Of a stretch of 64,000 nucleotides of DNA, positions 1,829 through 62,493 are shown piece by piece. The stretch's first letter is position 1. The number at the start of each line of letters is the position of its first letter. Position numbers and translations under genes: made by a program. The stretch is from Candidatus Azoamicus viridis (GTDB lineage Bacteria; Pseudomonadota; Gammaproteobacteria; UBA6186; Azoamicaceae), in contig DAWERM010000001.1 in the NCBI GenBank assembly GCA_043390165.1, forward strand, positions 50,777 to 114,776, in the 5' to 3' direction. The notes beneath the pieces are model-generated. The model was not told the DNA's origin. It worked only from the letters and a program-made list of their open reading frames with translations, and searched no databases.

Positions 1829-3073
1829 ATGAAATTTAATTGCCATTTAGTGAAATTTTTTGTTTCTATTTTAATAATGGGAGAAATAGTGTTTAATTGT
1901 TTTAAATCATTTTTGAGGAATATATTGATAATATCAATTTTTTCTTTTTCAATAAGCTTATTTGCTTATGATGAAGATAAAGAGTTTTTCTTTATTCCTA
2001 AAGGATATGTTCAATTTGATCACATTTTTTGGAAGGGTGATAAAAGTGATGATTTTTTATCAGGTGCTTTATTAAAAAGTACTGATTTATTTGTTAAAGG
2101 GCATTTAAGTAATAGTTCCCTGAATTATTTTGTGCATTTTAATTTTTTGAATACATCTTTAAAAAGTAATTTATCGCAGGCTTATGTGCAATATTCTACA
2201 GATGTTTGGTCGTTTAAGATTGGGCAAATCATTATTCCATTTGGATTGGAAAAAATAACAGATCCGTGCAATAGAGTATTTATGGAGTGTTCTTTGTTAA
2301 AAGGTGTTTTAGAAGATAAGTATTTTGGATTAAATGGGGAATATCGTTCTGATTTTTACGTATTATCAGCATCAATAGTTGTCCCTGATTTGGGAGATAG
2401 TTTTTCTAGAGCACAAGATAATAAGTATTCATTTTTGTTTAGGGGATATATAAATCCCATAAGAAACATAAATGCTATTTTACATTTAGGCTTTAATTAT
2501 AGGTTGATAAAGAAACATATTGAAGAGATTAGTCCGCCATCTGTTGTTTCTTTTAGAGATGCTCCTTCTTTTAATTCTGTTAATTCTTTGTTAAATTCAC
2601 ATTCATCTGTTTTGCCTAGACATTATACGTTAGGAGTAGAGCTTGCTGGTGTTTTAGGCCCGTTATTTTTACAATCTGAATATGTTAGAATTAAAGCTTC
2701 TTGGAGAGATTATGAAAAGGAAACTTATTATAGTTGGTATATGCAGGTTTCTTGTATTTTGACTGGTGAACATCATTTGTATGATAGAGTGTCTGGATCT
2801 TTTTTAGATCCAAATCCACAATCTTCGTTTGGAGCATTTGAAATTTCTGTTAGATATAGCTATGTTAATTTATTAAATGAGTGTTCTTTATTAAGAGGGG
2901 TTAGCAATTATGATGGAGAAAAAGATGCTTTTGTATTTGGCATAAATTGGATATTTAATAAAAGTTTAAAAATGCAGATAAATTATGCTTATGAAGATTT
3001 TAAGTACAGAGTATCTGAGTCTGATAATAGGAAGGTTTCTGGTATTGGCTTGAGAATCCAATTTTTATTTTAA
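1829..3073 (+). CDS. OprO/OprP-family (phosphate/anion-selective) outer-membrane porin
   Basis: Signal peptide ending SLFA, KIGQ..PFGLE motif, GAFEISVRYS..NL, FGINW..NKSLKMQINY and a C-terminal Phe beta-signal. True start is probably downstream (~1877-1889). Confidence 0.75.
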   Translation: MKFNCHLVKFFVSILIMGEIVFNCFKSFLRNILIISIFSFSISLFAYDEDKEFFFIPKGYVQFDHIFWKGDKSDDFLSGALLKSTDLFVKGHLSNSSLNYFVHFNFLNTSLKSNLSQAYVQYSTDVWSFKIGQIIIPFGLEKITDPCNRVFMECSLLKGVLEDKYFGLNGEYRSDFYVLSASIVVPDLGDSFSRAQDNKYSFLFRGYINPIRNINAILHLGFNYRLIKKHIEEISPPSVVSFRDAPSFNSVNSLLNSHSSVLPRHYTLGVELAGVLGPLFLQSEYVRIKASWRDYEKETYYSWYMQVSCILTGEHHLYDRVSGSFLDPNPQSSFGAFEISVRYSYVNLLNECSLLRGVSNYDGEKDAFVFGINWIFNKSLKMQINYAYEDFKYRVSESDNRKVSGIGLRIQFLF

Positions 3074-3156: not shown

Positions 3157-3786
3157 GTGATTTTTTTTGTGAAAGTTAATAAAATAGTTTATTATCATGT
3201 TTTAATTTTTGTATTTTTATTAGTAAGTTCTTTGTATTGTATAGCAGAGCCTGATATTGTTAATAGGTGCGTTACTTGTCATACTATTACAGGTAACAGC
3301 TCGGTTGCTATGTGGCCTAAAATAGCAGAGCAACATTCTGATTATATGTTTAAACAGCTGATTGAATTTAAAAAGGGGAAAAATGGAGATAGGTTCGATC
3401 CAACAATGTTCGGTATGTTACAGGGTATAAACGAAGCTGATTTGTACGTTTTATCAGAGTATTTTTCTAAACAGGTAGTTTCTAAAAGTATAATTAAAGT
3501 AAGTAAAGAAGAATATACGTATGGAAAAAATATTTATTTGTTTGGAGATAGAGATAATAAAGTTGTAGGATGTGTTGGTTGTCATGGCTTAGATGGTACT
3601 GGAAATAAATTAGCAAAATATCCTTCATTAAAGTGGCAGCATAAAGATTATATAGTTATTCAATTGAAAAAATTTAAATCAGGAGAAAGATCTAATGATT
3701 TGAATGGTATAATGAGGGATGTAACAGCAGATATGACAGATGAACAAATACAAGCAGTTGCATCTTATTTGTCTGTAGTTGAGTAA
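3157..3786 (+). CDS. Diheme cytochrome c4
   Basis: Signal peptide, two CxxCH motifs (CVTCH, CVGCH), WPKIAEQH..Y..KQL and YPSLKWQH..Y..QL repeats, distal Met ligands. Confidence 0.9.
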   Translation: MIFFVKVNKIVYYHVLIFVFLLVSSLYCIAEPDIVNRCVTCHTITGNSSVAMWPKIAEQHSDYMFKQLIEFKKGKNGDRFDPTMFGMLQGINEADLYVLSEYFSKQVVSKSIIKVSKEEYTYGKNIYLFGDRDNKVVGCVGCHGLDGTGNKLAKYPSLKWQHKDYIVIQLKKFKSGERSNDLNGIMRDVTADMTDEQIQAVASYLSVVE

Positions 3787-3963
3787 TTTTTATTTTAATA
3801 AGATGTGGTTAAGGTTTTTGTTTTTGGGTTTTTAACTTTTATATTTTTAATTTATAATATAGTATCTAGTGTTTGTTTTGATGTGGCTATTATATATTGA
3901 TTTTTATGTATTTTTAAAGTAAGCTTACTGGAAATTTTATTTGAAGGAATAGGAGAAAAATGT

Positions 3964-5277
3964 ATGAGTTATAATCTTAGTGATTGGCATCCAGAAGATA
4001 ATGAATATTGGAGTAAGAAAGCAAAATTTATAGCTAATAGAAATTTGTTTTCTTCTATACCATGTTTATTATTGGCTTTTTCTGTTTGGTTTATTTGGTC
4101 TGCTGTTGTTGTTAAATTGAATAGTATAGGATTTAATTTTACAACCGAACAATTATTTAGGTTGACAGCTATGCCTGGAATAACTGGTGCTACGTTGAGG
4201 ATTTTTTATTCTTTTTGTGTACCCATATTTGGTGGTAGAAATTGGACAGTTTTTAGCACAGCTACTTTATTGATTCCAGCTATAGGAATTGGAATTGCTG
4301 TTCAAGATACTAATACTAGTTATAATACTATGATTGTTTTAGCTATTTTATGTGGATTTGGTGGTGGTAATTTTTCTTCATCGATGTCTAATATAAGCTT
4401 CTTTTTTCCAAAAAGGTTTCAGGGAACTGCTTTGGGGCTTAATGCTGGGTTGGGTAATTTAGGTGTTAGCACTTTACAGTTTGTAGTTCCTGTTGTTATC
4501 TATTTTGGTTTTTTTGAGTTTATTACAGGCTGTCCTCAGGAGTTTATTGTAAATGGTAAAATAGAAAGAATTTGGTTGCAGAATGCTGCGTATTTTTGGG
4601 TTATTCCTGTAGTGTTAGCTACTATATCTGCTTTTATATTTATGGATAATTTGCCAACAGCTAAAGCATCATTAAAAGAACAGATGGTAATATTTAAAAG
4701 AAAACATATGTATATAGTAACGTGGTTGTATGTTATGTCTTTTGGATCTTTTATAGGTTACTCTGCTGCATTTCCATTATTAATTAAGACTCAGTTTCCA
4801 GATGTGAATCCTTTGCGTTATGCGTTTTTAGGTCCCATGGTTGGGGCATTAATAAGACCTGTCGGAGGGTGGATTTCAGATAAAGTAAAGAGTGGTGCAT
4901 TGATTACATTTGTAGATCTTTTTGTAATGATATTTGCTGTATTGGGAGTAATATATTTTATATCACCTGGTTCCAAAAGTTTTTATGGATTTTTTTTAAT
5001 GTTTATTTTGTTATTTACAACTACTGGAGTTGCTAATGGATCTGTTTTCCAGATGATTCCTATGATTTTTCCTCCGAAAGAGTCTGCTGTTGTATTAGGT
5101 TTTTCAGCAGCTATAGCAGCATATGGTGCATTTTTAATACCTCAATCTTTTGGCACATCTATAAAATTGACAGGTGGTCCTGAGTTTGCGTTGTATTGCT
5201 TTGAAATTTATTATGTTACTTGTTTGATTATAACTTGGTGGTATTATTTAAGAGCAAATGCTGAGGTTAAGTGCTGA
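3964..5277 (+). CDS. narK: Nitrate/nitrite transporter, NarK2 (NarK/NarU) type
   Basis: MFS protein with DWHPED..W, ANRNL, GATLRIFYSF..PIFGGR, GFGGGNFSSSM and GLNAGLGNLG. Directly upstream of narG. Confidence 0.93.
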   Translation: MSYNLSDWHPEDNEYWSKKAKFIANRNLFSSIPCLLLAFSVWFIWSAVVVKLNSIGFNFTTEQLFRLTAMPGITGATLRIFYSFCVPIFGGRNWTVFSTATLLIPAIGIGIAVQDTNTSYNTMIVLAILCGFGGGNFSSSMSNISFFFPKRFQGTALGLNAGLGNLGVSTLQFVVPVVIYFGFFEFITGCPQEFIVNGKIERIWLQNAAYFWVIPVVLATISAFIFMDNLPTAKASLKEQMVIFKRKHMYIVTWLYVMSFGSFIGYSAAFPLLIKTQFPDVNPLRYAFLGPMVGALIRPVGGWISDKVKSGALITFVDLFVMIFAVLGVIYFISPGSKSFYGFFLMFILLFTTTGVANGSVFQMIPMIFPPKESAVVLGFSAAIAAYGAFLIPQSFGTSIKLTGGPEFALYCFEIYYVTCLIITWWYYLRANAEVKC

Positions 5278-5341
5278 GGTATAGGTCTCAATTTGTTTTT
5301 AAAGTTTTTTATTGTTTTTAGAATTTATTAAGGAAGAAAAT

Positions 5342-8300
5342 ATGAGTCATGTTTTTTCACGACTTGGTTTTTTAAAAAAAGTTGTAAATACTTTTTCTAA
5401 TAATCATGGTATAACTACTGTAGAAGATAGAGATTGGGAAGAAGCTTATAGAAAAAGATGGCAACATGATAAAATAGTAAGATCTACTCATGGTGTTAAT
5501 TGTACAGGTTCTTGTAGTTGGAAAATTTATGTTAAAAATGGAATTATAACTTGGGAAACTCAACAGACTGATTATCCAAGGACTAGAAGTGGGATGCCTA
5601 ATCATGAGCCTAGAGGTTGTCAAAGGGGAGCAAGTTATTCTTGGTATATATATAGTTCAGCTAGGTTAAAATATCCATTAGTTAGACGGTGTTTATTAGA
5701 GTTATGGAGGGAATCAAAATCTAAATATGTTAATCCGGTAGATGCATGGGAAGATATACAATTAGACAATGAAAAAACTTTATTATATAAAACGAATAGA
5801 GGCATGGGTGGTTTTGTAAGATCTACTTGGGATGAAGTTAATGAAATTATTGCTTCTGCTAATATATATACCATAAAAAAATACGGACCAGATAGAGTTA
5901 TAGGGTTTTCTCCTATTCCAGCTATGTCAATGGTGTCATATGCAGCTGGAAGTAGATATATATCTTTAATAGGTGGAGCTTGTTTAAGCTTTTATGATTG
6001 GTATTGCGATTTACCTCCAAGTTCTCCGCAAACCTGGGGAGAGCAGACGGATGTTCCTGAAAGTGCTGATTGGTATAATTCTTATTTCATAATATTATGG
6101 GGATCAAATGTACCTCAAACCAGAACACCAGATGCACACTTTTTTACTGAAGTTCAGTATAAAGGTGCAAAAACAGTTTGTATTACTTCTGATTATAGTG
6201 AAGCTTCTAAATTGTGTGATTTGTGGTTAGCTCCGAAACCTGGTACAGATTCTGCGTTGTCTATGGCAATGGGACATGTTATATTAAAAGAATTTTATTT
6301 AACTGATACTAGTAAAAGTAAGTATTTTTATGATTATGCATGTCAATATACTGATATGACATTATTGGTTGTTATAGATAAAAGTGATGATATGTATCTT
6401 CCAGGTAGATTTTTAAGAAATTCTGATTTGGTTAAATCCCCTGATTTAAAAGATAATTCTGATTGGAAAACTGTTGTTTTTAATGAGAAAACAAACACTT
6501 TTGCTGTTCCAAATGGATCTATTGGATCTAGATGGGATAAGAGTGGTTTATGGAATTTGAAATTAAAAGATATTAAAGATGGAAGTGACATAGTACCTGT
6601 AATGTCATTTGTGAATATTAGTGATGCTATTTTGCAAATTGCATTTCCTTATTATGCAAGTTCCACTTATATTCATAGTTATTATAAGAGTACTATACAT
6701 GATAGTGTTTTATTGAGAAATGTACCTGTTAAGGAATTGAAATCTGGTAAGAAATCTATTTTTGTTGCTACGGTATTTGATTTATTGGTTGCTAATTATG
6801 GGATAAATAGAGGATTAGGTGGTTTAAATGTTGCTTCATCTTATGATGATAATATTCCTTATACTCCTCATTGGCAAGAAGAAATTACTGGTGTTAAGAA
6901 AGATGATGTTATAAGTGTTGCTAGACAGTTTGCAATAACAGCAGACAAGACTTCTGGAAAAAGTATGATTATTGTTGGAGCTGGTATGAATCATTGGTAT
7001 CATATGGATATGAATTATAGAGGTATAATTAACATGCTGATGATGTGTGGATGTGTAGGTCAGAGTGGTGGTGGATGGGCACATTATGTTGGACAGGAAA
7101 AATTAAGGCCTTTAGCTGGATGGTTACCGTTGGCTTTTTCTTTAGATTGGAAGAGACCTCCAAGATTGATGAATGGTACATCTTTTTTCTATAATCATAC
7201 ATCTCAATGGAAGTATGAAAAAGTAAAACTTAATGAGATTTTATCACCTGTTTCTGTTAATAAAAGTAAATGGAATGGCTATGGCATTATAGATTGTAAT
7301 GTTATGGCAGAACGTATGGGATGGTTACCTTCAGCACCACAATTAAGCGATAATCCTATTGCTATAGCGCAAGATGCAGAAAGAAATGGTAAAGATATAG
7401 TTGCTTATGTTGTTGATTTGTTAAAAAATAAAAAATTGACTATGGCTTGTGAAGATCCTGATAATTATAAGAATTTTCCTAGAAATATGTTTATTTGGAG
7501 ATCTAATTTGTTAGGTGCTAGTGGAAAAGGCCATGAATATTTTTTGAAGTATTTATTAGGCACACAGAATGCTGTTTCAGGTAAGGATATAGGTTGTTCT
7601 GGAGATGTTAAACCTAAAGAGGTTGTTTGGAGAGATAACGTAAGTGAAGGTAAATTGGATTTATTGGTTACATTAGATTTTAGAATATCAACTACGTGTT
7701 TATATTCTGATATAGTATTACCTACTGCTTCTTGGTACGAAAAAGATGATTTAAATACTTCTGATATGCATCCATTTATACATCCGTTATCAGCTGCAAT
7801 TGATCCTGTTTGGGAGACTAGAAGTGATTGGGAAATTTATAAGAGTATAGCCAAAAAATTTACTGATATTGTTGTAGATAATAATTGTTTTGAAGATATA
7901 GTTAAAGATGTGGTTTTGGTGCCGTTATTACATGATTCTCCTGGTGAATTAGGACAACCTATAGATGTTTTGGATTGGAAACGTGGAGAAGTTGATTTAA
8001 TTCCAGGTAAGACTATGCCTAATATTGTTGTGGTAGAAAGAAATTATAGGTCAATATATTTTCAATATACATCTTTTGGTCCTATATTAAGAAAATTAGG
8101 CAATTCTTGTAAAGGTATAACTTGGGATACAAATAAGGAAATAGATATTATAGGTAGAATAAATGGACTAGTTGATAGTATTTTTAGTTCAGATAAGCTG
8201 CCGAAGTTGGATACAGCTATCAATGCTGCTGAGCTTATATTAACTCTTGCTCCTGAGACTAATGGAGATGTTGCCTTGAAAGCTTGGGAATCTTTAAGTA

Positions 8301-9121
8301 AATCTACAGGTTTAAGTCATAAGCATTTAGTTGAGGAAAGATCTGCTGAAAAGATTAGATTTAGAGATATCCAAGCTCAGCCGCGTAAGATATTGACTTC
8401 TCCAATTTGGAGTGGAATAGAATCTGAGACTGTTTCTTATAATTCTGGGTATACTAATGTTCATGAGTATATTCCGTGGAGAACTATATCTGGAAGACAG
8501 CAATATTATCAAGATCATACTTGGATGAGAGATTTTGGTGAAGCTTTGTGTGTTTATAGGCCTCCTATTGATACTAAGACTACGGATTTATTATTAACTA
8601 GTGATATTTACGATAATGGTAATAAAAAAATTGCGTTAAATTTTATTACTCCACATCAAAAATGGGGTATTCATAGTACATATTCTGATAATTTATTGAT
8701 GTTGACTTTAAATAGAGGTGGTCCTGTAATTTGGATTAGTGAGATTGATGCTAAGAAAATAAGTGTTATCGATAATGATTGGATAGAAGCATATAATATT
8801 AATGGTTCTATAACGGCTAGAGCTGTTGTAAGCCAAAGAGTGCCAGAAGGTATGAGTTTAATGTATCATGCTCAAGAAAGAATTGTTAATGTTCCATTAT
8901 CTGAAGTAACTGGTCGTAGAGGAGGATTGCATAATTCTGTTACTAGGGTTACTCTTAAGCCTACACATATGATAGGTGGATATGCTCAGCAAGCATGGGG
9001 ATTTAATTATTATGGTACAGTTGGATCAAATCGAGATGAATTTATAGTTGTACGTAAAATAGCAAATGTTATTTGGGGATGCGAGGATAACAATGTTGCT
9101 AATAATGATGGAGGCAAATAA
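5342..9121 (+). CDS. narG: Respiratory nitrate reductase alpha subunit
   Basis: STHGVNCTGSCSW FS0 motif, HEPRGCQRG, FYDWYCDLP, TPHQKWGIHSTY. ATG at 5342 follows AAGGAAG, rather than the TTG at 5312. Confidence 0.98.
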   Translation: MSHVFSRLGFLKKVVNTFSNNHGITTVEDRDWEEAYRKRWQHDKIVRSTHGVNCTGSCSWKIYVKNGIITWETQQTDYPRTRSGMPNHEPRGCQRGASYSWYIYSSARLKYPLVRRCLLELWRESKSKYVNPVDAWEDIQLDNEKTLLYKTNRGMGGFVRSTWDEVNEIIASANIYTIKKYGPDRVIGFSPIPAMSMVSYAAGSRYISLIGGACLSFYDWYCDLPPSSPQTWGEQTDVPESADWYNSYFIILWGSNVPQTRTPDAHFFTEVQYKGAKTVCITSDYSEASKLCDLWLAPKPGTDSALSMAMGHVILKEFYLTDTSKSKYFYDYACQYTDMTLLVVIDKSDDMYLPGRFLRNSDLVKSPDLKDNSDWKTVVFNEKTNTFAVPNGSIGSRWDKSGLWNLKLKDIKDGSDIVPVMSFVNISDAILQIAFPYYASSTYIHSYYKSTIHDSVLLRNVPVKELKSGKKSIFVATVFDLLVANYGINRGLGGLNVASSYDDNIPYTPHWQEEITGVKKDDVISVARQFAITADKTSGKSMIIVGAGMNHWYHMDMNYRGIINMLMMCGCVGQSGGGWAHYVGQEKLRPLAGWLPLAFSLDWKRPPRLMNGTSFFYNHTSQWKYEKVKLNEILSPVSVNKSKWNGYGIIDCNVMAERMGWLPSAPQLSDNPIAIAQDAERNGKDIVAYVVDLLKNKKLTMACEDPDNYKNFPRNMFIWRSNLLGASGKGHEYFLKYLLGTQNAVSGKDIGCSGDVKPKEVVWRDNVSEGKLDLLVTLDFRISTTCLYSDIVLPTASWYEKDDLNTSDMHPFIHPLSAAIDPVWETRSDWEIYKSIAKKFTDIVVDNNCFEDIVKDVVLVPLLHDSPGELGQPIDVLDWKRGEVDLIPGKTMPNIVVVERNYRSIYFQYTSFGPILRKLGNSCKGITWDTNKEIDIIGRINGLVDSIFSSDKLPKLDTAINAAELILTLAPETNGDVALKAWESLSKSTGLSHKHLVEERSAEKIRFRDIQAQPRKILTSPIWSGIESETVSYNSGYTNVHEYIPWRTISGRQQYYQDHTWMRDFGEALCVYRPPIDTKTTDLLLTSDIYDNGNKKIALNFITPHQKWGIHSTYSDNLLMLTLNRGGPVIWISEIDAKKISVIDNDWIEAYNINGSITARAVVSQRVPEGMSLMYHAQERIVNVPLSEVTGRRGGLHNSVTRVTLKPTHMIGGYAQQAWGFNYYGTVGSNRDEFIVVRKIANVIWGCEDNNVANNDGGK

Positions 9122-10629
9122 TGAAGATTCGTGCTCAAATAGGTATGGTTTTAAATTTAGATAAATGTATAGGTTGTCATACATGTTCTGTAACTTGTAA
9201 AAATGTTTGGACTTCTAGAAGAGGTGTTGAGTATGCTTGGTTTAATAATGTAGAAAGTAAACCAGGAGTTGGTTATCCTAATAATTGGGAATCTCAAGAA
9301 AAATGGAATGGTGGATGGAAAATTAATGATAATGGGCAGTTGGAACCGAATATTGGTGGAAAGTTTAATGTATTATTAAAGATTTTTTCAAATTCAGATT
9401 TGCCATCTATAGATGATTATTATGAACCATTTACTTTTAATTATAGTTATTTACAAAATGCAGATGTTTCTAAAACTCCTCCATGTGCAAGGCCTGTTTC
9501 TGTTATTACAGGAGAGTATCTTGATAAGATTAAATCTGGTCCAAATTGGGAAGAAATATTGGGAGGAGAATTTGAAAAAAGAGGCAAAGACAAGAATTTT
9601 GATGGGATAGAAAAAGAAATGTATGGAGAATTTCAAAATACATTTATGGTTTATTTACCTCGCCTTTGTGAACATTGTTTGAATCCAGCATGTGTAGCAT
9701 CTTGCCCGTCTGGAGCTATATATAAAAGGGAAGAGGATGGTATAGTTTTAATAGATCAAAATAGATGCCGTGGATGGAGAATGTGTGTTAGTGCATGTCC
9801 GTATAAAAAGATTTATTATAATTGGAATTCTGGTAAATCTGAAAAATGTATATTTTGCTATCCTAGAATTGAATCAGGTATGACTACTATATGTGCAGAA
9901 ACATGTGTAGGTAGAATTCGTTATCTTGGCGTGATGTTATATGATGCTGATAGAATAAGTTCTGCTGCTTTGGTAAGAGATCCATCTGATTTATATGAGT
10001 CTCAGTTGAGTTTATTTTTAGATCCAAATGATGGTAATATTGAAAAAGAGGCTTTAAGACAAGGTATATCTGAGCATTGGATTAATTCTGCAAAAAAATC
10101 ACCAGTTTACAAGATGGCTGTTGACTGGAAGGTAGCCTTACCTTTACATCCTGAATATAGAACTTTACCTATGGTATGGTATATACCTCCGTTAAGTCCT
10201 ATACAAAGCGCTATTGATTCTGGTAAGTTAACTGTTAATGGTATATTGCCAGATGTAAGTTCTTTAAGGATTCCTGTAAAGTATTTAGCAAATATGCTAA
10301 CAGGAGGTAATGAAAGGGCAGTTGTTGTTGCTTTAGAAAGGATGTTAGCAATGAGAGCTTATATGAGGGATAAGTTAATGAATAATGTAGTAAATTCTAA
10401 AGTGTTAGATGGTGTTAATTTGAGCGATTTTCAAGTAAATGAAATGTATAGTTATATGGCTATAGGAAATTATGAAGATAGATTTGTAATACCTACAGCA
10501 AGAACGGATTATATGAGTGATCCTTTCGCTATGAGAAGTGGTTGTGGTTTTAATACTGGAAGTGCAGCTTCTGAACATATGAATACTTCTAAATATGGTA
10601 GTGATAAAAATTTATTTGGTGGTGTATAA
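9121..10629 (+). CDS. narH: Respiratory nitrate reductase beta subunit
   Basis: MKIRAQIGMVLNLDKCIGCHTCSVTCK, CEHCLNPACVASCP, CRGWRMCVSACP, CIFCYPR: four Fe-S motifs. Confidence 0.98.
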   Translation: MKIRAQIGMVLNLDKCIGCHTCSVTCKNVWTSRRGVEYAWFNNVESKPGVGYPNNWESQEKWNGGWKINDNGQLEPNIGGKFNVLLKIFSNSDLPSIDDYYEPFTFNYSYLQNADVSKTPPCARPVSVITGEYLDKIKSGPNWEEILGGEFEKRGKDKNFDGIEKEMYGEFQNTFMVYLPRLCEHCLNPACVASCPSGAIYKREEDGIVLIDQNRCRGWRMCVSACPYKKIYYNWNSGKSEKCIFCYPRIESGMTTICAETCVGRIRYLGVMLYDADRISSAALVRDPSDLYESQLSLFLDPNDGNIEKEALRQGISEHWINSAKKSPVYKMAVDWKVALPLHPEYRTLPMVWYIPPLSPIQSAIDSGKLTVNGILPDVSSLRIPVKYLANMLTGGNERAVVVALERMLAMRAYMRDKLMNNVVNSKVLDGVNLSDFQVNEMYSYMAIGNYEDRFVIPTARTDYMSDPFAMRSGCGFNTGSAASEHMNTSKYGSDKNLFGGV

Positions 10630-10631
10630 GT

Positions 10632-11249
10632 TTGATTAAAGTTAAGACGTATAAGATTTTTTCAACTTTATTGTCATATCCTAGCAATGAGTTTAAAGAA
10701 TGTATAAGTTCAATTATTCCTATTTTAAAGGAAGAGAATTTGTTATCTGAAGATTGTATAGATAAATTGGCTGTTTTTATCGATTATATAAATTGCTCCA
10801 ATTTGTTAGATCTTCAGGAAAATTACGTTTCTATTTTTGACAGACAGAAACGTTTTTCTTTATATTTATTTGAGCATATACATGGTGATGCAAGGGAACG
10901 TGGTATGGCAATGGTTGATTTAAAAAATTTATACAAAGCGTCTGATTTTGATATAGACTCAAATATTGAGTTACCTGATTACATACCAGTTTTTTTAGAA
11001 TATTTATCGTTAATGCCAAAAGAGAAATCTTCGATATTGCTAGGAGAGATTATTAATATTATAGCTGTAATTGGTAGGAGATTACAGCTGTTTAATAGTT
11101 TGTATTACATAATTTTTGATTTATTAGAGTATTTATCTAATTTTAAATCTGATAAAAAAATAATTGATGGTGTTATTCTTGATAGATTAAATGATAAAAT
11201 TGATTGTTCTAAAGTAGATGAAGAATGGGAAGAGCCTAAGGTTTTTTGA
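10632..11249 (+). CDS. narJ: Nitrate reductase Mo-cofactor assembly chaperone
   Basis: LLSYP, SLYLFEHIHGDARERGMAMVDL, ELPDYIPVFLEY; lies between narH and narI. Confidence 0.95.
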   Translation: MIKVKTYKIFSTLLSYPSNEFKECISSIIPILKEENLLSEDCIDKLAVFIDYINCSNLLDLQENYVSIFDRQKRFSLYLFEHIHGDARERGMAMVDLKNLYKASDFDIDSNIELPDYIPVFLEYLSLMPKEKSSILLGEIINIIAVIGRRLQLFNSLYYIIFDLLEYLSNFKSDKKIIDGVILDRLNDKIDCSKVDEEWEEPKVF

Positions 11250-11287
11250 GTTGTTTATTTTATTATAGTTATTTTAAGGGCTTTTAT

Positions 11288-11974
11288 ATGACGATTTTTT
11301 TAAATAATGTTTTGTTTTCATATTATCCATATGTAGCAATTACCGTGTTTTTTGTTGGATCCATATTGAGGTATGAGAAAGATCAGTATGGTTGGAAATC
11401 TGGATCTAGTCAGATTTTAAGGAAGGATTTATTATTTTGGGGTAGTAATTTATTTCATTTTGGTGTGATTTTTATTTTATTTGGGCATTTTTTTGGTTTA
11501 ATGACGCCAGAATTTGTGTATCGTATTTTTTTAAAGCCAGAGCAAAAACAGATTTTAGCTATGGTTAGTGGTGGAATAGCTGGTGTTTTTTGTTTTATTG
11601 GCATGACCATATTAGTTTATAGAAGATTATCTGATTCTCGTGTTAGAGTTACTAGTAGCGTATCTGATATATTTATTTTATTTTTTTTATATATACAGTT
11701 GATATTGGGGTTGATGTCAATATATATTTCATATCAACATATTAATGATGCTAGTATTATGATAGCATTAGCTAGTTGGGTTCAAGGTATAGTGACGTTT
11801 AATCCTGATGTTGCGAGTTATGTATTAAATGTACATTGGATTTTTAAAGTACATTTATTCCTTGGAATGACTATGTTTTTAGTTTTTCCTTTTACGAGAT
11901 TAGTGCATGTTTTTAGTTTTCCATATTTGTATTTTTTTAGAACAGGCTATCAGTTAGTAAGAAAGTTGAAATAG
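11288..11974 (+). CDS. narI: Respiratory nitrate reductase gamma subunit (cytochrome b)
   Basis: YPY..., QYGWKSGSSQ, SNLFHFG..GHFFG, KVHLFLG..FPFTRLVH with heme His ligands. Start taken at ATG 11288. Confidence 0.96.
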   Translation: MTIFLNNVLFSYYPYVAITVFFVGSILRYEKDQYGWKSGSSQILRKDLLFWGSNLFHFGVIFILFGHFFGLMTPEFVYRIFLKPEQKQILAMVSGGIAGVFCFIGMTILVYRRLSDSRVRVTSSVSDIFILFFLYIQLILGLMSIYISYQHINDASIMIALASWVQGIVTFNPDVASYVLNVHWIFKVHLFLGMTMFLVFPFTRLVHVFSFPYLYFFRTGYQLVRKLK

Positions 11975-12022
11975 AAAGTTAAAATAGAATATTATTTATA
12001 AATAATTTAGGTAGGTTTTTTA

Positions 12023-13303
12023 ATGAATGATGGGAATGGTAGAGTTTTTAGTTTGAAAGATTATGCTACTAAAAATGATATGTTATCTGCATTAGTATTA
12101 AGTACGGTTGCTTTTACAGTATGCTTTGCTGTATGGACTATTTTTTCAATTATAGGTATAAGAATAAAGCATGAAATAGGTTTGAATAACACACAGTTTG
12201 GTACTTTAATAGCTACACCTATTTTAACAGGTTCGCTAACTAGATTGTTTTTAGGGATATGGACAGATCAATATGGTGGTAGAATAGTTTTTACTATTTT
12301 AATGTTAGCAGCTTCTGTTGCTACATGGATTTTAACTTATGCTTCAACTTATCATCAATACTTGTTGGCTGCTTTAGGTGTAGGGCTAGCTGGTGGAAGT
12401 TTTGCTGTAGGTATAGCATATGTTTCTAGATGGTATCCTGAAGAAAAACAAGGAACTGTTTTAGGAATATTCGGTGTAGGTAATTTTGGAGCTGCAGTTA
12501 CTAATTTTGGAGCTCCACATATATTGCAGCCATATGGATGGCATGCTGTGGCTAAGGTTTATTCTATAGTGTTAGCTTTAACAGCTATTTTATTTTTTTT
12601 ATTAACAAAGACAGATCCAAGCTTACAACATCGCAATAAATTTAATATAAAATATGAATCTGCGACTAAACAAATGGAGCCACTTCTTAATATTCAAGTG
12701 TGGAGATTTTCATTGTATTATTTTTTTGTTTTTGGAGCTTTTGTAGCGTTGGCTTTATGGTTGCCTAGATATTATATAGGTGTTTATGGTTTAGATATAA
12801 AGACAGCTGGGATGTTAACTGCTGTTTATTCCTTTCCTGGAGGTATATTCAGAGCTTTAGGTGGATGGCTTTCTGATAAATTTGGCGCTAGAAAAGTCAT
12901 GTATTTTACGTTTATAATTAGTATGGGGTGTTTATTTTTAATGTCTTATCCTGCTACTAATTATATAATACAAGGGGTATCTGGGGATATTAGTTTTAGC
13001 TTAAGAATAACGTTAATTCCTTTTGTTATTTTAACATTTATATTAGGTTTTTTTATGTCTTTAGGGAAAGCTGCTGTTTATAAGCATATTCCAGTTTATT
13101 ATCCAGGGAATGTAGGAGCTGTAGGTGGTATGGTTGGATTAATAGGTGGCCTTGGTGGTTTTTGTTTGCCTATTACATTTGGTTATATGAATGACCATAT
13201 AGGTGTTTGGACTAGTTGCTTTATGGTATTATTTTTGATAACTTTTGTATCATTGATTTGGATGCATTTTTCTATAGTTTCTATGGAAAAATCTAAATTG
13301 TAG
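12023..13303 (+). CDS. narK: Nitrate transporter, NarK1 type
   Basis: STVAFTVCFAVW, PILTGSLTR, GLAGGSFAVG, GIFGVGNFG, QVWRFSLYYFFVFGAFVAL. Confidence 0.9.
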   Translation: MNDGNGRVFSLKDYATKNDMLSALVLSTVAFTVCFAVWTIFSIIGIRIKHEIGLNNTQFGTLIATPILTGSLTRLFLGIWTDQYGGRIVFTILMLAASVATWILTYASTYHQYLLAALGVGLAGGSFAVGIAYVSRWYPEEKQGTVLGIFGVGNFGAAVTNFGAPHILQPYGWHAVAKVYSIVLALTAILFFLLTKTDPSLQHRNKFNIKYESATKQMEPLLNIQVWRFSLYYFFVFGAFVALALWLPRYYIGVYGLDIKTAGMLTAVYSFPGGIFRALGGWLSDKFGARKVMYFTFIISMGCLFLMSYPATNYIIQGVSGDISFSLRITLIPFVILTFILGFFMSLGKAAVYKHIPVYYPGNVGAVGGMVGLIGGLGGFCLPITFGYMNDHIGVWTSCFMVLFLITFVSLIWMHFSIVSMEKSKL

Positions 13304-13340
13304 AAATAATAATTTTTTGTTTTTAGGTAATTTTTAAGTA

Positions 13341-14318
13341 ATGTTTAACGTTTTGAAAGATGAATATAGTAGATGTTTTAATTATTTAAGATTATCTGTA
13401 ACAGATTTGTGTAATTTTAGTTGTAAATATTGCTTGCCTGATAATGTATATTTAAAATCCAAAGATTATTTGTCTTTGAATGAAATATATAATTTGGTAT
13501 ATGCTTTTTCAGAGTTAGGTGTAAAAAAAATTAGATTAACAGGTGGAGAACCGACGATAAGAAGTGATTTTATTGATATAGGTAAGTCTATACTGTCTAT
13601 TCCTGGTATTGAATCAGTAGTTTTTACTACTAATGGTTATAAGTTATATAAGATTATTGATTCTGTGAAGAATGTTGGATTTAGTGGTGTAAATGTTAGT
13701 TTAGATACACTTAATTGTAAGAAATTTTTTTTAATAACAGGTAAAAATTGTTTTAATAAGGTTTTAGAAGGCATATACCGTTCAATAGAAATTGGTTTAT
13801 CTACAAAAATAAATGTTGTGTTATCAAAGTTTTTTACTATTGAAGATTTTGAGGATTTTTATTCATTTTTAAAATATAAAAATGTAGTTGTAAGATTTAT
13901 AGAACAAATGGAAACTGGTTTTTTGCATAAGCGTAACGGAAGTAATATTACGTCTTTTTTCCTTATGAGTTTTTTAGATAAGAATGGATGGATTAAATTG
14001 GAAAAAGGCGATAACAGTGATGGACCTGCTGTTGTTTTTTATAATTCTAATTATCTTGGAAAAATTGGAATAATTAATCCTTATTCTAGTACGTTTTGTT
14101 TTTCTTGCAATAGATTGAGAGTGTCTTCTATTGGAAACTTATACTTATGTTTATTTGGAGATAGATGTTATTCTTTAAGAAAATTTTTAGATAGTTTTGA
14201 AAGTAGATGTAATTTAAAACAATTTATATTAGATAAAGTTAAAGTGAAGAATAGCTCTCATTTTTTGAATTATGGCAAGCCAGGTATTATAAAGAGTTTT
14301 GCGTCTATTGGTGGTTAA
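13341..14318 (+). CDS. moaA: GTP 3',8-cyclase (radical SAM)
   Basis: YLRLSVTDLCNFSCKYC, RLTGGEP, FCFSCNRLR..CLF, C-terminal IGG. Confidence 0.96.
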   Translation: MFNVLKDEYSRCFNYLRLSVTDLCNFSCKYCLPDNVYLKSKDYLSLNEIYNLVYAFSELGVKKIRLTGGEPTIRSDFIDIGKSILSIPGIESVVFTTNGYKLYKIIDSVKNVGFSGVNVSLDTLNCKKFFLITGKNCFNKVLEGIYRSIEIGLSTKINVVLSKFFTIEDFEDFYSFLKYKNVVVRFIEQMETGFLHKRNGSNITSFFLMSFLDKNGWIKLEKGDNSDGPAVVFYNSNYLGKIGIINPYSSTFCFSCNRLRVSSIGNLYLCLFGDRCYSLRKFLDSFESRCNLKQFILDKVKVKNSSHFLNYGKPGIIKSFASIGG

Positions 14319-14337
14319 TTATTATTAAAATTTTGTT

Positions 14338-15348
14338 ATGAAACATATTAATGAAAATGATGTTTTTAAGAAAGTTTCTTCTTATAGAATGATAGATATT
14401 AGTTTAAAACCTAGTACTTATAGGAGAGCTTGTGTTATAGGTTCTATTTATTTAGGAAAAAAAGTTTATAATTTAGTAAAGGAAAAAAAAATTCCAAAGG
14501 GAGATCCTCTATTATTGGCTGAAATAGCTGGTATAAATGCAGCTAAAAATACAAGCAATTTTATTTTGTTATGTCATCAAATAAATATAGAAAACGTTTT
14601 CGTAAATGTTGTTTTAGATGATCTGAATTATACAATTACTTTATATTGTATTGTTTTTGCAAATGCTAAAACAGGAGTAGAAATGGAAGCTATGTCAGGT
14701 GTTAGTGTAGGGCTTATGACTATATACGATTTAACAAAGAAGTTTGATCCTTTTATTTGTATAAATAGTATTAAGTTATTGTTTAAAGATGGTGGAGAGA
14801 ATGGTTTAGTTCTTGGTGATTTAGAGAATGTTCCTGATCATTTGAAGAGATTTTTTTTCGATTTAAATGTTGTATATAGTAACATTTCAGTTGTTTTGAT
14901 TACTATTAGTGATAGAGCCAGCTCTGGAGAATATGATGATATATCTGGAAAAATTCTTCTTGATTTTTTTAGGTTTAATAAAGCTGAGGTAATAGATTCT
15001 TTGATTATAGCTGATGATAAAGAAAGAATAGTAGATGCATTTAAGTATTATATAGATAAATATTCTCCCAATTTAATATTGACAAGCGGTGGAACAGGTT
15101 TATCAAGTAGGGATTTTACTAGCGAGGCTATATTAAGTTTTTGTAAGAAAATTATTCCTGGGATAGGAGAGTTATTAAGATTAAGTGGTAATAAACATAC
15201 GAAGTCTTCGTGGTTAAGTTGTTCTGTTGCTGGAGTGTATGAGAAAACTTTGATTGTTTCTTTACCTGGTAAACCATCTGCTGTTTCTGAAGGGCTTTAT
15301 GTTTTAAAAGATTTATTGCTACATGCGGTTAACGTTATTAATAAATAA
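14338..15348 (+). CDS. moaCB: Fused MoaC-MoaB/MogA molybdenum cofactor biosynthesis protein
   Basis: N-terminal MoaC domain (MIDIS.K, LCH, TGVEMEA, IYD) and C-terminal MoaB/MogA domain (ISDRAS.G..D.SG, TSGGTG..RDFT, SLPGKP). Confidence 0.9.
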   Translation: MKHINENDVFKKVSSYRMIDISLKPSTYRRACVIGSIYLGKKVYNLVKEKKIPKGDPLLLAEIAGINAAKNTSNFILLCHQINIENVFVNVVLDDLNYTITLYCIVFANAKTGVEMEAMSGVSVGLMTIYDLTKKFDPFICINSIKLLFKDGGENGLVLGDLENVPDHLKRFFFDLNVVYSNISVVLITISDRASSGEYDDISGKILLDFFRFNKAEVIDSLIIADDKERIVDAFKYYIDKYSPNLILTSGGTGLSSRDFTSEAILSFCKKIIPGIGELLRLSGNKHTKSSWLSCSVAGVYEKTLIVSLPGKPSAVSEGLYVLKDLLLHAVNVINK

Positions 15349-15356
15349 TAGTCTTT

Positions 15357-16616
15357 ATGATAAGTTATTTTAAGGCCATTTCTATTATTTTAGATGTTTC
15401 TAGAAAATTTTTCTATAGTCGCAGTGAAGACTTAATTGATACTTTAAATTCTAGTAATAACATTTCTTTAAATAATATTTTTTGTAACAGTAGTGTTCCT
15501 GATTTTAATAGTGCGGCTATGGATGGTTTTGCCTTACAGAGTAAGAGTACAGTTACATTAAATTGTGATAATTTAAAGAAATTTACTGTTGTAGATTATC
15601 TTAAAGCAGGGTCTTTTGTTGATTTTAAGTTATTAAACAATAATTCTATTATTGAGATAATGACTGGTGCTAGATTGCCTGATGTATTTGATGCTGTGGT
15701 TAAATATGAAGATGTTAAAGTAAAACATAAAGATGTTTTTTTAAGTAAAAAGATAGATTCAGGAGAAAATGTAAGGTATGTAGGAGAAGATTATAAATAT
15801 GGAGACGTTATTATAGAAAAGGGTGAAGTAATTAATCTTTCTCATATAATGTCTTTGTCGTCTTCAGGTGTAAAGCTTATTAAGGTTTTGAAAAAATTTA
15901 AAATTTATTTAATATGTACTGGAGATGAAATCTTAGATTATTTTTCATCTATAACTTTGAAGGATAATTGTTTTATTTATAATTCTAGTTTACCATATTT
16001 AGAAAACATTTTTAGATTATTAGGATTTGATGTCGTGTATTTAGGTATAGTTAAAGATAATACTGAAGCTTTTTTAAGTCTTATTGATTTTGCTGTTAGC
16101 GATAGTAAAGCATCTTTAATTTTAACTACAGGAGCTGTATCGAAAGGTAAAGCTGATTTTATATTAGAGTCTTTAAAAAAGATAAAAGCTAAAGTATTAT
16201 TTCATGGTGTCAACATTAAGCCTGGGAAGCCTATTTTGTTTGCTAGTATAAATTCCAATAGTTATTTTTTTGGATTACCAGGTAATCCTATATCAACAGT
16301 TATTGGATTTAGGTTCTTTGTTTATCCATTTTTAAGGAGCTTTTTTGGATTGCCATTTGAGAAATCTTTAAAAGCTACATTGGTTAATAGTTATTTTAAT
16401 AGAGGAAAATACGAAGTTTTTTTAAAGGCAGTTATTGTTTTAAATAAGAATATTTTAGAGGTATCTATTATTGATGAACAGGAATCTTTTAAAATTAGTG
16501 GGTTAGTGGAATGCAATTGTTTTGTTTTTTTAAAAGCTGGAAATTTATATACTAAAGGTGATTTATTGGATGTTTATGCTTTTGATAATTTTTTTTTTAA
16601 TGGGTTTTTATGTTAA
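15357..16616 (+). CDS. moeA: Molybdopterin molybdotransferase
   Basis: SAAMDGFA, IMTGARLP..DAVV, GENVR..GED, TGDE, TTGAVSKG, IKPGKP, GLPGNP. Confidence 0.95.
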   Translation: MISYFKAISIILDVSRKFFYSRSEDLIDTLNSSNNISLNNIFCNSSVPDFNSAAMDGFALQSKSTVTLNCDNLKKFTVVDYLKAGSFVDFKLLNNNSIIEIMTGARLPDVFDAVVKYEDVKVKHKDVFLSKKIDSGENVRYVGEDYKYGDVIIEKGEVINLSHIMSLSSSGVKLIKVLKKFKIYLICTGDEILDYFSSITLKDNCFIYNSSLPYLENIFRLLGFDVVYLGIVKDNTEAFLSLIDFAVSDSKASLILTTGAVSKGKADFILESLKKIKAKVLFHGVNIKPGKPILFASINSNSYFFGLPGNPISTVIGFRFFVYPFLRSFFGLPFEKSLKATLVNSYFNRGKYEVFLKAVIVLNKNILEVSIIDEQESFKISGLVECNCFVFLKAGNLYTKGDLLDVYAFDNFFFNGFLC

Positions 16617-16873
16617 ATATTAGATTAAGATTTTTTGGTGTTTTTAGTGATTATTTTAAGATTGATTTATCAATAAATTTAAATAATGGTGCCAATTTAA
16701 ATGATTTAAGGAATTTAATTAGTTTTGAAATGCAAGCTAGAAATTTAGATTTTAATTTTACAAGTTTGCTTAAGAGTTCTGTATTTTCTAATGAAGATGA
16801 AATTTTAGCTGATAGTTATTTACTTAAATCTGAAGATGTTATTTATTTATTACCACCTGTTTCCGGGGGTTGA
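16610..16873 (+). CDS. moaD: Molybdopterin synthase sulfur carrier
   Basis: 87 aa ubiquitin-like protein ending LLPPVSGG. Confidence 0.92.
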   Translation: MLNIRLRFFGVFSDYFKIDLSINLNNGANLNDLRNLISFEMQARNLDFNFTSLLKSSVFSNEDEILADSYLLKSEDVIYLLPPVSGG

Positions 16874-16874
16874 T

Positions 16875-17303
16875 ATGTATGTTACAGATAATGTTTTTAT
16901 AAGTATATCAAAAAACAAAATTAGATTTGATGATTTTTCGGTTTTTTCTATTAGAAGTGATTTTGGAGCTGTAGTTTCTTTTTTAGGTCTTGTAAGGAAT
17001 TTGAATGAAGGTAGAGAAGTTTTGGAAATTGATTATGTTGTTTTTGATAAGCTTGTATATTCTATATTAATTAAAAAATGCGAAGATATAGTTTTAAAAA
17101 ACAGTAAGTCTAGGATTTTTATACAATTTTGCAGTGGAAAATTATCGTTAAGAAATATTAATTTATTTATAGCAGTGAGCACAATAAATAGAAAAATGGC
17201 GTTTTTGCTTTGTAGTGAATTACTTGATTTTATTAAGGTTAATGCTCCAATTTGGAAGAAAGAGTATTATTTAGATAGAAGTTACAAGTGGTTAAATAGC
17301 TAA
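16875..17303 (+). CDS. moaE: Molybdopterin synthase catalytic subunit (divergent)
   Basis: GAVVSFLGLVRN.NEG and IKVNAPIWKKE; start taken at ATG 16875. Confidence 0.88.
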   Translation: MYVTDNVFISISKNKIRFDDFSVFSIRSDFGAVVSFLGLVRNLNEGREVLEIDYVVFDKLVYSILIKKCEDIVLKNSKSRIFIQFCSGKLSLRNINLFIAVSTINRKMAFLLCSELLDFIKVNAPIWKKEYYLDRSYKWLNS

Positions 17304-17331
17304 GCTTTTGTATTTAGGATTTACTAAATAA

Positions 17332-17892
17332 ATGTTAAATAAAATTTTACCTATTGTGTTAGCTGGTGGTAAATCATCTAGAATGGGAAGAGACAAGAGA
17401 TTTGTTAGTTTTAATGATACTTGTTTTTTGGATAATACTATAAATATTTTATATAAAGTTGGATTTAGTAATGTTTTAGTTAGTGGTTTATGTATTAATT
17501 ATAATAGTGTTATAGATGAATTCTTATCTATTGGTCCATCTAGCGCTTTTTATAAGTTTTTATCAAGTGGAGATTATGTTTATTATGATCACTTGTTATT
17601 TATTCCTATAGATATGCCATTTTTACATGAGTGTTTTATTTTTAATATGTTTTTGAATATAAAAAAGAATACTACGGTTTATTATGATAATTTTAATTTT
17701 CCGCTGCTGTTATCCAAAGATTTTCTATCTAGAAAGATTTTTAGTGAGGTTGTCTTTTTTAATGAAAGTTCTAATAAATCTGTAAAGATTTTTTTGGATA
17801 ATATTCTGGTTAGCAGGATTAGTTATGATGATGCTTTTGTTTTTGCAAATATTAATAATGTTTTTGATTTGTATTTTTTTGGGATTATTTAG
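17332..17892 (+). CDS. mobA: Molybdenum cofactor guanylyltransferase
   Basis: LAGGKSSRMGRDK, GP, PIDMP, FANIN. Confidence 0.9.
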   Translation: MLNKILPIVLAGGKSSRMGRDKRFVSFNDTCFLDNTINILYKVGFSNVLVSGLCINYNSVIDEFLSIGPSSAFYKFLSSGDYVYYDHLLFIPIDMPFLHECFIFNMFLNIKKNTTVYYDNFNFPLLLSKDFLSRKIFSEVVFFNESSNKSVKIFLDNILVSRISYDDAFVFANINNVFDLYFFGII

Positions 17893-17979
17893 GAGAGAAA
17901 GGGATTTGAACCCTTGATACTTTTTATAGTATAGTGACTTTCGAGATCACCCCGTTAAACCAGACTCTGGCATCTCTCC
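17891..17979 (-). tRNA. tRNA-Ser(CGA)
   Basis: Reverse complement gives acceptor stem GGAGAGA/TCTCTCC, anticodon arm GTGAT-CT-CGA-AA-GTCAC, long variable arm, and T arm AAGGG-TTCAAAT-CCCTT. No encoded CCA. Confidence 0.92.
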
Positions 17980-18061
17980 AATATTTTTATTTTCAATTGT
18001 ATGAAATAAAATTAATAATGTATAATAAATATTATATTTTTATTTTAGGAGTTTAATAAAT

Positions 18062-18478: not shown

Positions 18479-18510
18479 AAATAATTTTTGTTTATTTTTT
18501 AGGAAAACCG

Positions 18511-43456: not shown

Positions 43457-43466
43457 ATATTTTCTT

Positions 43467-62408: not shown

Positions 62409-62493
62409 TTATAAATGTTTTATTGTTTATAAAATTAATTAAATATAAATTTTATAGTTTATAGTATTATACTTTTGTATATATAAGGTGTGA

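What the first reader, a model, noticed from the sequence alone, without database searches (positions are those of the whole stretch)
3157..17892. Complete nitrate-respiration module in an organelle-like reduced genome: a probable energy-supplying (Azoamicus-like) endosymbiont
Seen: about 14 kb of co-oriented, tightly packed, intact genes (narK-narGHJI-narK-moaA-moaCB-moeA-moaD-moaE-mobA). They sit in a very AT-rich genome where hfq, hflX, recR, rimP, ispG, rodZ, dsbD and aroQ are missing from their usual loci. No amino-acid or vitamin biosynthesis genes and no regulators occur in 64 kb. NarG/H are far less eroded than neighbours such as BamB or YfgM. Known: reduced nutritional symbionts do not normally keep Nar; the described exception is the denitrifying ciliate endosymbiont Ca. 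Azoamicus and its relatives. Inference: respiration is this organism's service to its host, analogous to a mitochondrion that uses nitrate. It may be a new member of that lineage.
Basis: partly seen in the sequence, partly recalled or inferred. Interest (0 to 1): 0.92.

Follow-up and report, generated by a model that had tools for sequence, protein, structure and literature searches.

The report
Nitrate-respiration genes of published Azoamicus viridis

Summary
Window 3157-17892 carries 14 co-oriented, intact genes: cytochrome c4, narK, narGHJI, a second NarK-family transporter (published as narT), moaA, moaC/B, moeA, moaD, moaE and mobA.

The host genome is one contig of 373,572 bp at 25.9% GC. 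These are exactly the figures published for the circular MAG of Candidatus Azoamicus viridis (Speth et al. 2024, PMC11549363). Four gene coordinates from that paper's supplement are exact start-to-stop ORFs in this genome. Its 16S identities to the 292,520-bp and 284,432-bp relatives (Ca. A. ciliaticola, Ca. A. soli) reproduce the published values. The whole 64-kb window is collinear with both relatives.

Catalytic residues of NarG, NarI and both transporters are conserved.

The Azoamicus-like respiratory-endosymbiont reading is therefore supported, but the 'new member' suggestion is not. The nar/Moco module and its role were already described in 2021 and 2024. ATP export to a ciliate host remains the literature's inference and was not tested here.

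The parts
3157..3786 (+). Dihaem c-type cytochrome (c4-like); periplasmic electron carrier
   Evidence: Pfam Cytochrom_C has 2 matched stretches at 58 bits. NCBIfam gives weak PdsA/CcoP hits. It is 64/57% identical to the syntenic gene in A. ciliaticola/A. soli. Cytochrome c4 is reported for all Azoamicaceae in PMC11549363.
3964..5277 (+). narK, a nitrate/nitrite transporter of the E. coli NarK/NarU type
   Evidence: TIGR00886 scores 316.5 bits against cut-off 311.7. The match to the NarU structure 4iu8 is 435 bits, and both substrate-binding Arg positions are conserved in the alignment.
5312..9121 (+). narG, the catalytic Mo-bisMGD subunit of respiratory nitrate reductase
   Evidence: TIGR01580 scores 2068 bits over positions 1-1233 of 1235. 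The match to E. coli NarG 1q16_A is 1917 bits end to end. The H-x3-C-x3-C...C FS0 motif and the CDLPP Asp (the Mo ligand) are conserved.
9121..10629 (+). narH, the Fe-S subunit
   Evidence: TIGR01660 scores 874.6 bits against cut-off 524, over positions 1-486 of 492.
10632..11249 (+). narJ, the Moco-insertion chaperone
   Evidence: TIGR00684 scores 112 bits against cut-off 59.
11246..11974 (+). narI, the dihaem b membrane anchor and quinol oxidase
   Evidence: TIGR00351 scores 248 bits against cut-off 106. In the alignment to 1q16_C, all four haem-ligand His are conserved.
12023..13303 (+). Second NarK-family MFS transporter (called narT in the Azoamicus papers; NarK1-type)
   Evidence: TIGR00886 scores 215.9 bits, below its cut-off of 311.7; Pfam MFS_1 scores 176 bits. 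The match to NarU is 61 bits with both Arg positions aligned. It is 52.5% identical to the first of two tandem narK genes in the free-living G013.
13341..14318 (+). moaA, GTP 3',8-cyclase
   Evidence: TIGR02666 scores 271 bits, just under its cut-off of 284.
14338..15348 (+). Fused moaC/moaB (cPMP synthase plus an MPT adenylyltransferase-like domain)
   Evidence: NF002947 scores 275 bits against cut-off 285. The MoaC domain covers residues 14-156 and the MoaB/Mog domain 182-325.
15357..16616 (+). moeA, molybdopterin molybdotransferase
   Evidence: NF007960 scores 241 bits, below its cut-off of 440, but the match is full length.
16610..16873 (+). moaD, the small subunit of MPT synthase
   Evidence: TIGR01682 gives E 8.5e-5. 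Pfam ThiS scores 26.7 bits against cut-off 22.5. The gene is syntenic in both relatives.
16836..17303 (+). moaE, the large subunit of MPT synthase
   Evidence: Pfam MoaE scores 58 bits against cut-off 23.4.
17332..17892 (+). mobA, Moco guanylyltransferase (makes bis-MGD)
   Evidence: TIGR02665 gives E 1.2e-10. Pfam NTP_transf_3 scores 61 bits.

Best explanation
The stretch is the narK-narGHJI-narT plus bis-MGD cofactor cluster of the already published circular MAG of Candidatus Azoamicus viridis (Azoamicaceae, Gammaproteobacteria; Speth et al. 2024). This organism is one of the denitrifying 'respiratory' endosymbionts of anaerobic plagiopylean ciliates.

Proposed mechanism:
1. Two NarK-family transporters bring nitrate into the symbiont cytoplasm and export nitrite.
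2. NarI oxidises quinol on the outer face of the inner membrane. Electrons pass through its two b haems and the NarH Fe-S clusters to the Mo-bisMGD site of NarG on the cytoplasmic face. This redox loop builds proton motive force.
3. NarJ and the adjacent moaA-moaCB-moeA-moaDE-mobA genes make and insert the cofactor locally.
4. Nitrite is then reduced by NirK, Nor and NosZ, which are encoded elsewhere. Electrons reach them through bc1 and cytochromes c4/c5.
5. The ATP synthase makes ATP, which the Tlc translocase is proposed to exchange for host ADP.

What is shown here: gene identity, intactness, conserved catalytic residues, synteny and the identity of the genome. What is inferred from the enzyme family and the Azoamicus literature: the redox-loop mechanism, the direction of ATP flow and the ciliate host.
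For: Identity of the genome:
- It is one contig of 373,572 bp at 25.94% GC. Supplementary Table 1 of PMC11549363 gives 373572 bp and 25.9% for A. viridis.
- The published coordinates of four 'truncated genes' (8812-9279, 129993-130337, 187042-187377, 200918-202516) are exact start-to-stop ORFs here.
- Same-genus genomes have contigs of 292,520 bp (24.39% GC) and 284,432 bp (25.09% GC), the published sizes and GC of A. ciliaticola and A. soli.
- 16S identities are 92.1-92.4% and 89.7-90.1%, against the published 92.3% and 89.8%.
- Three groundwater runs of one 2019 study hold the cluster with no differences.

The module:
- The NarG FS0 and Asp motifs, the four NarI His and the NarK Arg pairs are conserved.
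- The locus is fully collinear in both relatives, and Nar is among the best conserved proteins of the window.

Rest of the chain in this genome:
- Tlc, 573 bits.
- NirK, 358 bits; a COX1-family protein next to it; NosZ, 844 bits; CcoN, 682 bits.
- NuoD and cytochrome b.

Literature: narGHI, narJ, narK/narT, cytochromes c4/c5 and the bis-MGD pathway are described for A. ciliaticola (PMC7969357). [quoted passage not shown]
Against: - I could not align G000 base by base to GCA_043390165.1, because no download is available. Identity rests on size, GC, coordinates and 16S distances.
- Several Moco genes (moaA, moaCB, moeA, moaD, moaE, mobA) score below NCBIfam's curated cut-offs, so their activity is presumed from synteny and Pfam hits.
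- For A. viridis, the source paper recovered only a partial plagiopylean 18S fragment from the source samples. No FISH or transcript data exist for this species.
- The direction of Tlc transport cannot be read from sequence.
Confidence: 0.93

Rival explanations
1. It is a new, undescribed member of the Azoamicaceae.
For: NarG is only 69-72% identical to the other same-genus genomes searched. 16S identity to A. ciliaticola and A. soli is 90-92%. It is therefore a distinct species from those two.
Against: Genome length to the base, GC, four published gene coordinates and the 16S distance pattern all equal those published for Ca. A. viridis. The source-like runs are 2019 groundwater metagenomes, as in the paper.
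Confidence: 0.02
2. It is an energy parasite rather than an energy supplier. Tlc imports host ATP, as in Rickettsia and Chlamydia, and denitrification serves only the bacterium's own needs.
For: The Tlc/NTT family (TIGR00769 at 508 bits) is best known from ATP-importing intracellular parasites (general knowledge). Direction of transport is not encoded in the sequence. No host data exist for A. viridis beyond a partial 18S fragment.
Against: A 374-kb genome keeps a complete chain: complexes I and III, cbb3, Nar, Nir, Nor, Nos and ATP synthase. The Nar proteins are among the most conserved in the window, and no amino-acid or vitamin biosynthesis gene was found in the window. An ATP importer would not need such a full chain. 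In A. ciliaticola, FISH and transcript data support the supplier model (PMC7969357).
Confidence: 0.05
3. It is an assembly or binning artefact: a nar island from another organism joined to a reduced genome.
For: The paper states that narG was acquired horizontally in the family's ancestry. Family-level relatives of 1.3-4.3 Mb lacked NarG in those searched (0 of 7). The nar region is slightly GC-richer than the window's minimum (32% against 21-28%).
Against: Single contigs of 22.7 kb, 13.8 kb and 18.7 kb in independent runs span the cluster and its flanks with no mismatches. The same locus sits in the same place in two other closed genomes. Its GC is far below the 59% of the nearest free-living nar locus.
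Confidence: 0.01

Closest known systems
Candidatus Azoamicus viridis cMAG, GCA_043390165.1 (Speth et al. 2024, Nat Commun, PMC11549363)
   Same: Length (373,572 bp), GC (25.9%), published gene coordinates, 16S distances to sister species and groundwater origin all match. So does gene content, including the accABCD genes unique to A. viridis; accB and accC lie in this window.
   Different: No difference was detected. A base-by-base comparison was not possible with these tools.
Candidatus Azoamicus ciliaticola (Graf et al. 2021, Nature, PMC7969357) and Ca. A. soli
   Same: The whole 64-kb window is collinear with both. The order is the same: cyt c4, narK, narGHJI, narT, moaA, moaCB, moeA, moaDE, mobA, ruvX, hppA. 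NarG is 72/69% identical.
   Different: At the syntenic places, A. viridis keeps extra genes that tblastn did not find there in the other two: accB, accC, cutA, ybaB, hisS, tgt, queA and aspS. A. ciliaticola lacks the cbb3 oxidase according to the paper, whereas this genome has CcoN.
E. coli respiratory nitrate reductase A, NarGHI (PDB 1Q16), with NarK/NarU (4JR9, 4IU8)
   Same: NarG (1917 bits), NarI (210 bits) and NarK (435 bits) align end to end. Cofactor-binding and substrate-binding residues are conserved.
   Different: Here the operon is flanked by two different NarK-type transporters and is fused into one block with the full bis-MGD pathway. No NarXL/Fnr-type regulator was found in the window.
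narK1-narK2-narGHJI-moaA clusters of free-living Gammaproteobacteria (for example G013: 3.7 Mb genome, nar-bearing contig 59% GC)
   Same: The same genes are present and NarG is 64% identical. moaA lies directly downstream of narI.
   Different: In the free-living genome both transporters lie upstream in tandem. None of the window's Moco genes other than moaA matched on the 40 kb of that contig fetched. In Azoamicus the NarK1-type gene lies after narI, and six more Moco genes follow.

Membership tests
Candidatus Azoamicus viridis (type genome GCA_043390165.1) | Genome length and GC as published (373,572 bp; 25.9%) | tested here: met
   373,572 bp and 25.94% GC, against Supplementary Table 1.
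Candidatus Azoamicus viridis (type genome GCA_043390165.1) | Published gene coordinates fall on real genes | tested here: met
   Four of the four single-ORF coordinates in supplement file 8 are exact start-to-stop ORFs. The fifth entry is a 'fragmented gene' and is not a single ORF, as expected.
Candidatus Azoamicus viridis (type genome GCA_043390165.1) | At least 95% ANI to the type genome | not testable with these tools
   The GenBank record cannot be downloaded here. The indirect evidence above makes identity near certain.
Candidatus Azoamicaceae (respiratory endosymbionts) | 16S and phylogenetic placement with Azoamicus | tested here: met
   It is in the same GTDB genus as the 292,520-bp and 284,432-bp genomes. 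16S identity is 92.1-92.4% and 89.7-90.1%, against the published 92.3% and 89.8%.
Candidatus Azoamicaceae (respiratory endosymbionts) | Extreme reduction with a complete denitrification chain, an electron transport chain and a TlcA ATP/ADP translocase | tested here: met
   Tlc; Nar; NirK, NosZ and CcoN; a COX1-family Nor candidate next to nirK; NuoD; cytochrome b; the AtpC end at window 3-281.
Candidatus Azoamicaceae (respiratory endosymbionts) | Lives inside a plagiopylean ciliate | not testable with these tools
   The paper reports only a partial plagiopylean 18S fragment in the source samples.
Membrane-bound respiratory nitrate reductase (nNar, NarGHI) | NarG, NarH and NarI above the equivalog cut-offs, plus the NarJ chaperone | tested here: met
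   Scores against cut-offs are 2068/1084, 875/524, 248/106 and 112/59 bits.
Membrane-bound respiratory nitrate reductase (nNar, NarGHI) | FS0 His/Cys ligands and the Mo-ligand Asp in NarG; four haem His in NarI | tested here: met
   Alignments to 1q16_A and 1q16_C. Residue numbering comes from my own knowledge of the E. coli structure.
Membrane-bound respiratory nitrate reductase (nNar, NarGHI) | Nitrate reduction activity | not testable with these tools
   No RNA holder was listed for this species. An enzyme or isotope assay is needed.

The most novel reading that the evidence does not exclude
A groundwater metagenome from a second, independent study (X4, 2022) holds the whole cluster in pieces that are about 93-97% identical, with indels only in intergenic DNA or in multiples of three. 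This may be an undescribed sister population, or a species at the 95% boundary, of Ca. A. viridis. If so, the lineage and its intact nar/Moco block occur beyond the type locality.
Probability: 0.5. Interest if true: 0.1.

Novelty: already known. Interest (0 to 1): 0.1.

Why it matters
Respiratory endosymbionts that supply ATP by denitrification are a striking parallel to mitochondria. However, this exact genome, its nar/bis-MGD genes and the proposed role are already published (2021, 2024, with further species in 2025), so the finding adds no new biology. Its value is as a correct blind call and as an independent re-annotation of the locus.

Tried and rejected
- Expression: the search for sequencing runs listed no RNA holder for the cluster, so expression of A. 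viridis nar could not be examined. This is not evidence either way.
- The 'new species' reading was rejected on size, GC, coordinates and 16S.
- Misassembly was rejected because long contigs in three runs bridge the cluster and because of synteny with two closed genomes.
- En-bloc acquisition: I looked for whether nar and the whole Moco block arrived together. The nearest free-living nar locus found (G013) carries only moaA next to narI, so the extended block is not simply copied from that kind of donor. One comparison is too few to say more.
- NorB: no NCBIfam model reached E <= 1e-20 for the COX1-family protein next to nirK. It is named Nor-like from Pfam COX1, its position, and the paper's statement that nirK and nor are adjacent.
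- Large protein-database searches, structure prediction and complex prediction were not used, because the question was settled without them.
Full report
**What is in the stretch**

ORF listing and family scans show 14 co-oriented + strand genes between 3157 and 17892. None has an internal stop, and the gaps between them are short or they overlap.
- A dihaem cytochrome c4-like gene lies at 3157-3786.
- narK follows at 3964-5277.
- narG (5312-9121) scores 2068 bits against TIGR01580, whose cut-off is 1084.
- narH, narJ and narI all score above their equivalog cut-offs.
- A second NarK-family MFS transporter lies at 12023-13303. The Azoamicus papers call it narT.
- The Moco genes come last: moaA, a fused moaC/moaB, moeA, moaD, moaE and mobA.
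- A tRNA-Ser on the opposite strand abuts the mobA stop.
- Upstream are the end of atpC, ffh and an OprO/P-type porin. Downstream are ruvX, a membrane pyrophosphatase, miaA and hflKC.

**Is the module intact?**

- NarG aligns end to end with E. coli NarG (1q16_A, 1917 bits). The His/Cys FS0 motif and the Asp in the CDLPP motif, which ligates molybdenum, are conserved.
- NarI keeps all four haem-ligand histidines.
- Both transporters keep the two arginines that bind substrate in NarK/NarU.
- The small Moco proteins are divergent and several score below NCBIfam cut-offs. They still hit the correct Pfam families and are syntenic in relatives.

**The surroundings**

I annotated all the long, non-nested ORFs of the 64-kb window; shorter ORFs nested inside them on the other strand were not scanned.
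- The window holds translation, chaperone, Sec, Bam and tRNA-modification genes, accB/accC, a Na+/H+ exchanger and an amino-acid permease.
- It holds no amino-acid or vitamin biosynthesis gene and no classical transcription factor.
Hfq was not found anywhere in the genome with PF17209.
- GC is 21-32%.

**Which genome is this?**

- The window lies at 50777-114776 of a single contig of 373,572 bp with 25.94% GC.
- Supplementary Table 1 of Speth et al. 2024 (PMC11549363) lists Ca. Azoamicus viridis at 373572 bp and 25.9% GC.
- That paper's list of truncated genes gives coordinates 8812-9279, 129993-130337, 187042-187377 and 200918-202516. In this contig, each is an exact start-to-stop ORF on one strand.
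- Two same-genus genomes have contigs of 292,520 bp (24.39% GC) and 284,432 bp (25.09% GC). These are the published figures for A. ciliaticola and A. soli.
- My 16S identities are 92.1-92.4% (viridis to ciliaticola), 89.7-90.1% (viridis to soli) and 90.7-91.3% (ciliaticola to soli). The published values are 92.3, 89.8 and 91.2%.
- Three 2019 groundwater runs of one study carry the cluster on long contigs with no differences.

The genome is therefore the published Ca. A. viridis cMAG.

- The genome encodes a Tlc/NTT translocase (573 bits to PF03219, 508 bits to TIGR00769).
- It encodes NirK (358 bits), with a COX1-family Nor candidate directly beside it.
- It encodes a TAT-type NosZ (844 bits), CcoN of a cbb3 oxidase (682 bits), NuoD and cytochrome b.
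- Family-level relatives with genomes of 1.3-4.3 Mb lacked NarG in those searched (0 of 7). This fits the paper's conclusion that nar was acquired horizontally.

**Comparison with relatives**

- The whole window is collinear with A. ciliaticola (43.4-98.6 kb) and A. soli (51.1-103.4 kb).
- NarK, NarG and NarH are 69-77% identical to their counterparts. This is comparable to GroEL and ribosomal proteins. BamB, BamD and YfgM are at or below 35%.
- accB, accC, cutA, ybaB, hisS, tgt, queA and aspS are present here but were not found at the syntenic places in the other two genomes. This fits the paper's description of A. viridis as the largest and least reduced genome.
- A free-living gammaproteobacterium (G013; 59% GC on the nar-bearing contig) has the order narK1-type, narK2-type, narGHJI, moaA. 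The Azoamicus arrangement, with one transporter on each side and the complete bis-MGD pathway behind, is thus a rearranged and extended form.

**Mechanism**

The mechanism follows the established chemistry of nNar enzymes and the model of Graf et al. 2021.
1. Nitrate enters and nitrite leaves through the NarK-type transporters.
2. NarI oxidises quinol at the outer face of the inner membrane.
3. Electrons pass through NarH to the cytoplasmic Mo-bisMGD site of NarG, which builds proton motive force.
4. The adjacent genes make the cofactor.
5. Nitrite is reduced further by NirK, Nor and NosZ.
6. ATP from the F-type synthase is proposed to be exchanged for host ADP by TlcA.

Only the gene-level steps are shown here. 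ATP export and the ciliate host are inferred. For A. viridis the paper itself reports only a partial plagiopylean 18S fragment.

**Novelty**

There is none. The narGHI, narJ, narK/narT, cytochrome c4/c5 and bis-MGD genes were described for A. ciliaticola in 2021. Their conservation in all five genomes, including this one, was reported in 2024. Further Azoamicus species with the same narGHIJKT locus were added in 2025.

The only small addition is a second groundwater study (X4) that carries a 93-97% identical version of the whole cluster.

Noticed in passing
G000:C1:1-77 and 373489-373572 (outside the window): The contig begins and ends in the same 7-bp tandem repeat, (TTACATA)n, giving terminal overlaps of 63, 70 and 77 bp. 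The circularisation junction therefore lies inside a microsatellite. Its true copy number, and so the exact genome length, is uncertain from short reads.
   Followed up: partly
window 18511-20574: A full-length membrane pyrophosphatase (985 bits to NF001951) lies directly behind the nar/Moco block. It is conserved at 65/60% identity at the same place in A. ciliaticola and A. soli. The word 'pyrophosphatase' does not occur in the main text of either Azoamicus paper. Its role in the energy budget seems undiscussed.
   Followed up: partly
window 1829-3073: An OprO/P-family porin (Pfam Porin_O_P, 97.6 bits) lies just upstream of cytochrome c4 and nar. It is syntenic in both relatives but only 33-38% identical.
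   Followed up: partly
window 26626-28619, 30837-31133, 36181-37428, 42359-44486, 47128-48855: accC, accB, cutA, ybaB, hisS, tgt, queA and aspS are present here, but tblastn did not find them at the syntenic positions of A. ciliaticola or A. soli. For aspS only a 28-29% paralogue-like hit appeared elsewhere. ffh, ruvX, truB and rbfA also gave no hit in A. soli.
   Followed up: partly
window 49223-49486: An 87-aa ORF with a weak zinc-finger (LIM-like) Pfam hit of 24.5 bits lies between aspS and tRNA-Arg. It is conserved in both relatives (71% identity over half its length, and 40% over the full length). Its function is unknown.
   Followed up: no
window 3157-17892 as laid on run X4: A 2022 groundwater metagenome from a different study carries the whole cluster at about 93-97% identity. 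The indels are a 7-bp insertion and a 1-bp deletion in the cyt c4-narK spacer, and a 3-bp deletion at the end of moaCB. Most substitutions are transitions.
   Followed up: partly
window 60321-62811: fusA is followed directly by rpsJ, with no tuf gene between them, unlike the classical str operon.
   Followed up: no
window 17891-17979: tRNA-Ser(CGA) on the minus strand overlaps the last 2 nt of mobA, which shows how tightly the genome is packed.
   Followed up: no
L056 (G013:C56) 6565-18728: A free-living gammaproteobacterium (3.7 Mb genome; 59% GC on this contig) has the order narK1-type, narK2-type, narGHJI, moaA, with NarG 64% identical. This is the nearest non-symbiont nar locus among the relatives searched.
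   Followed up: partly
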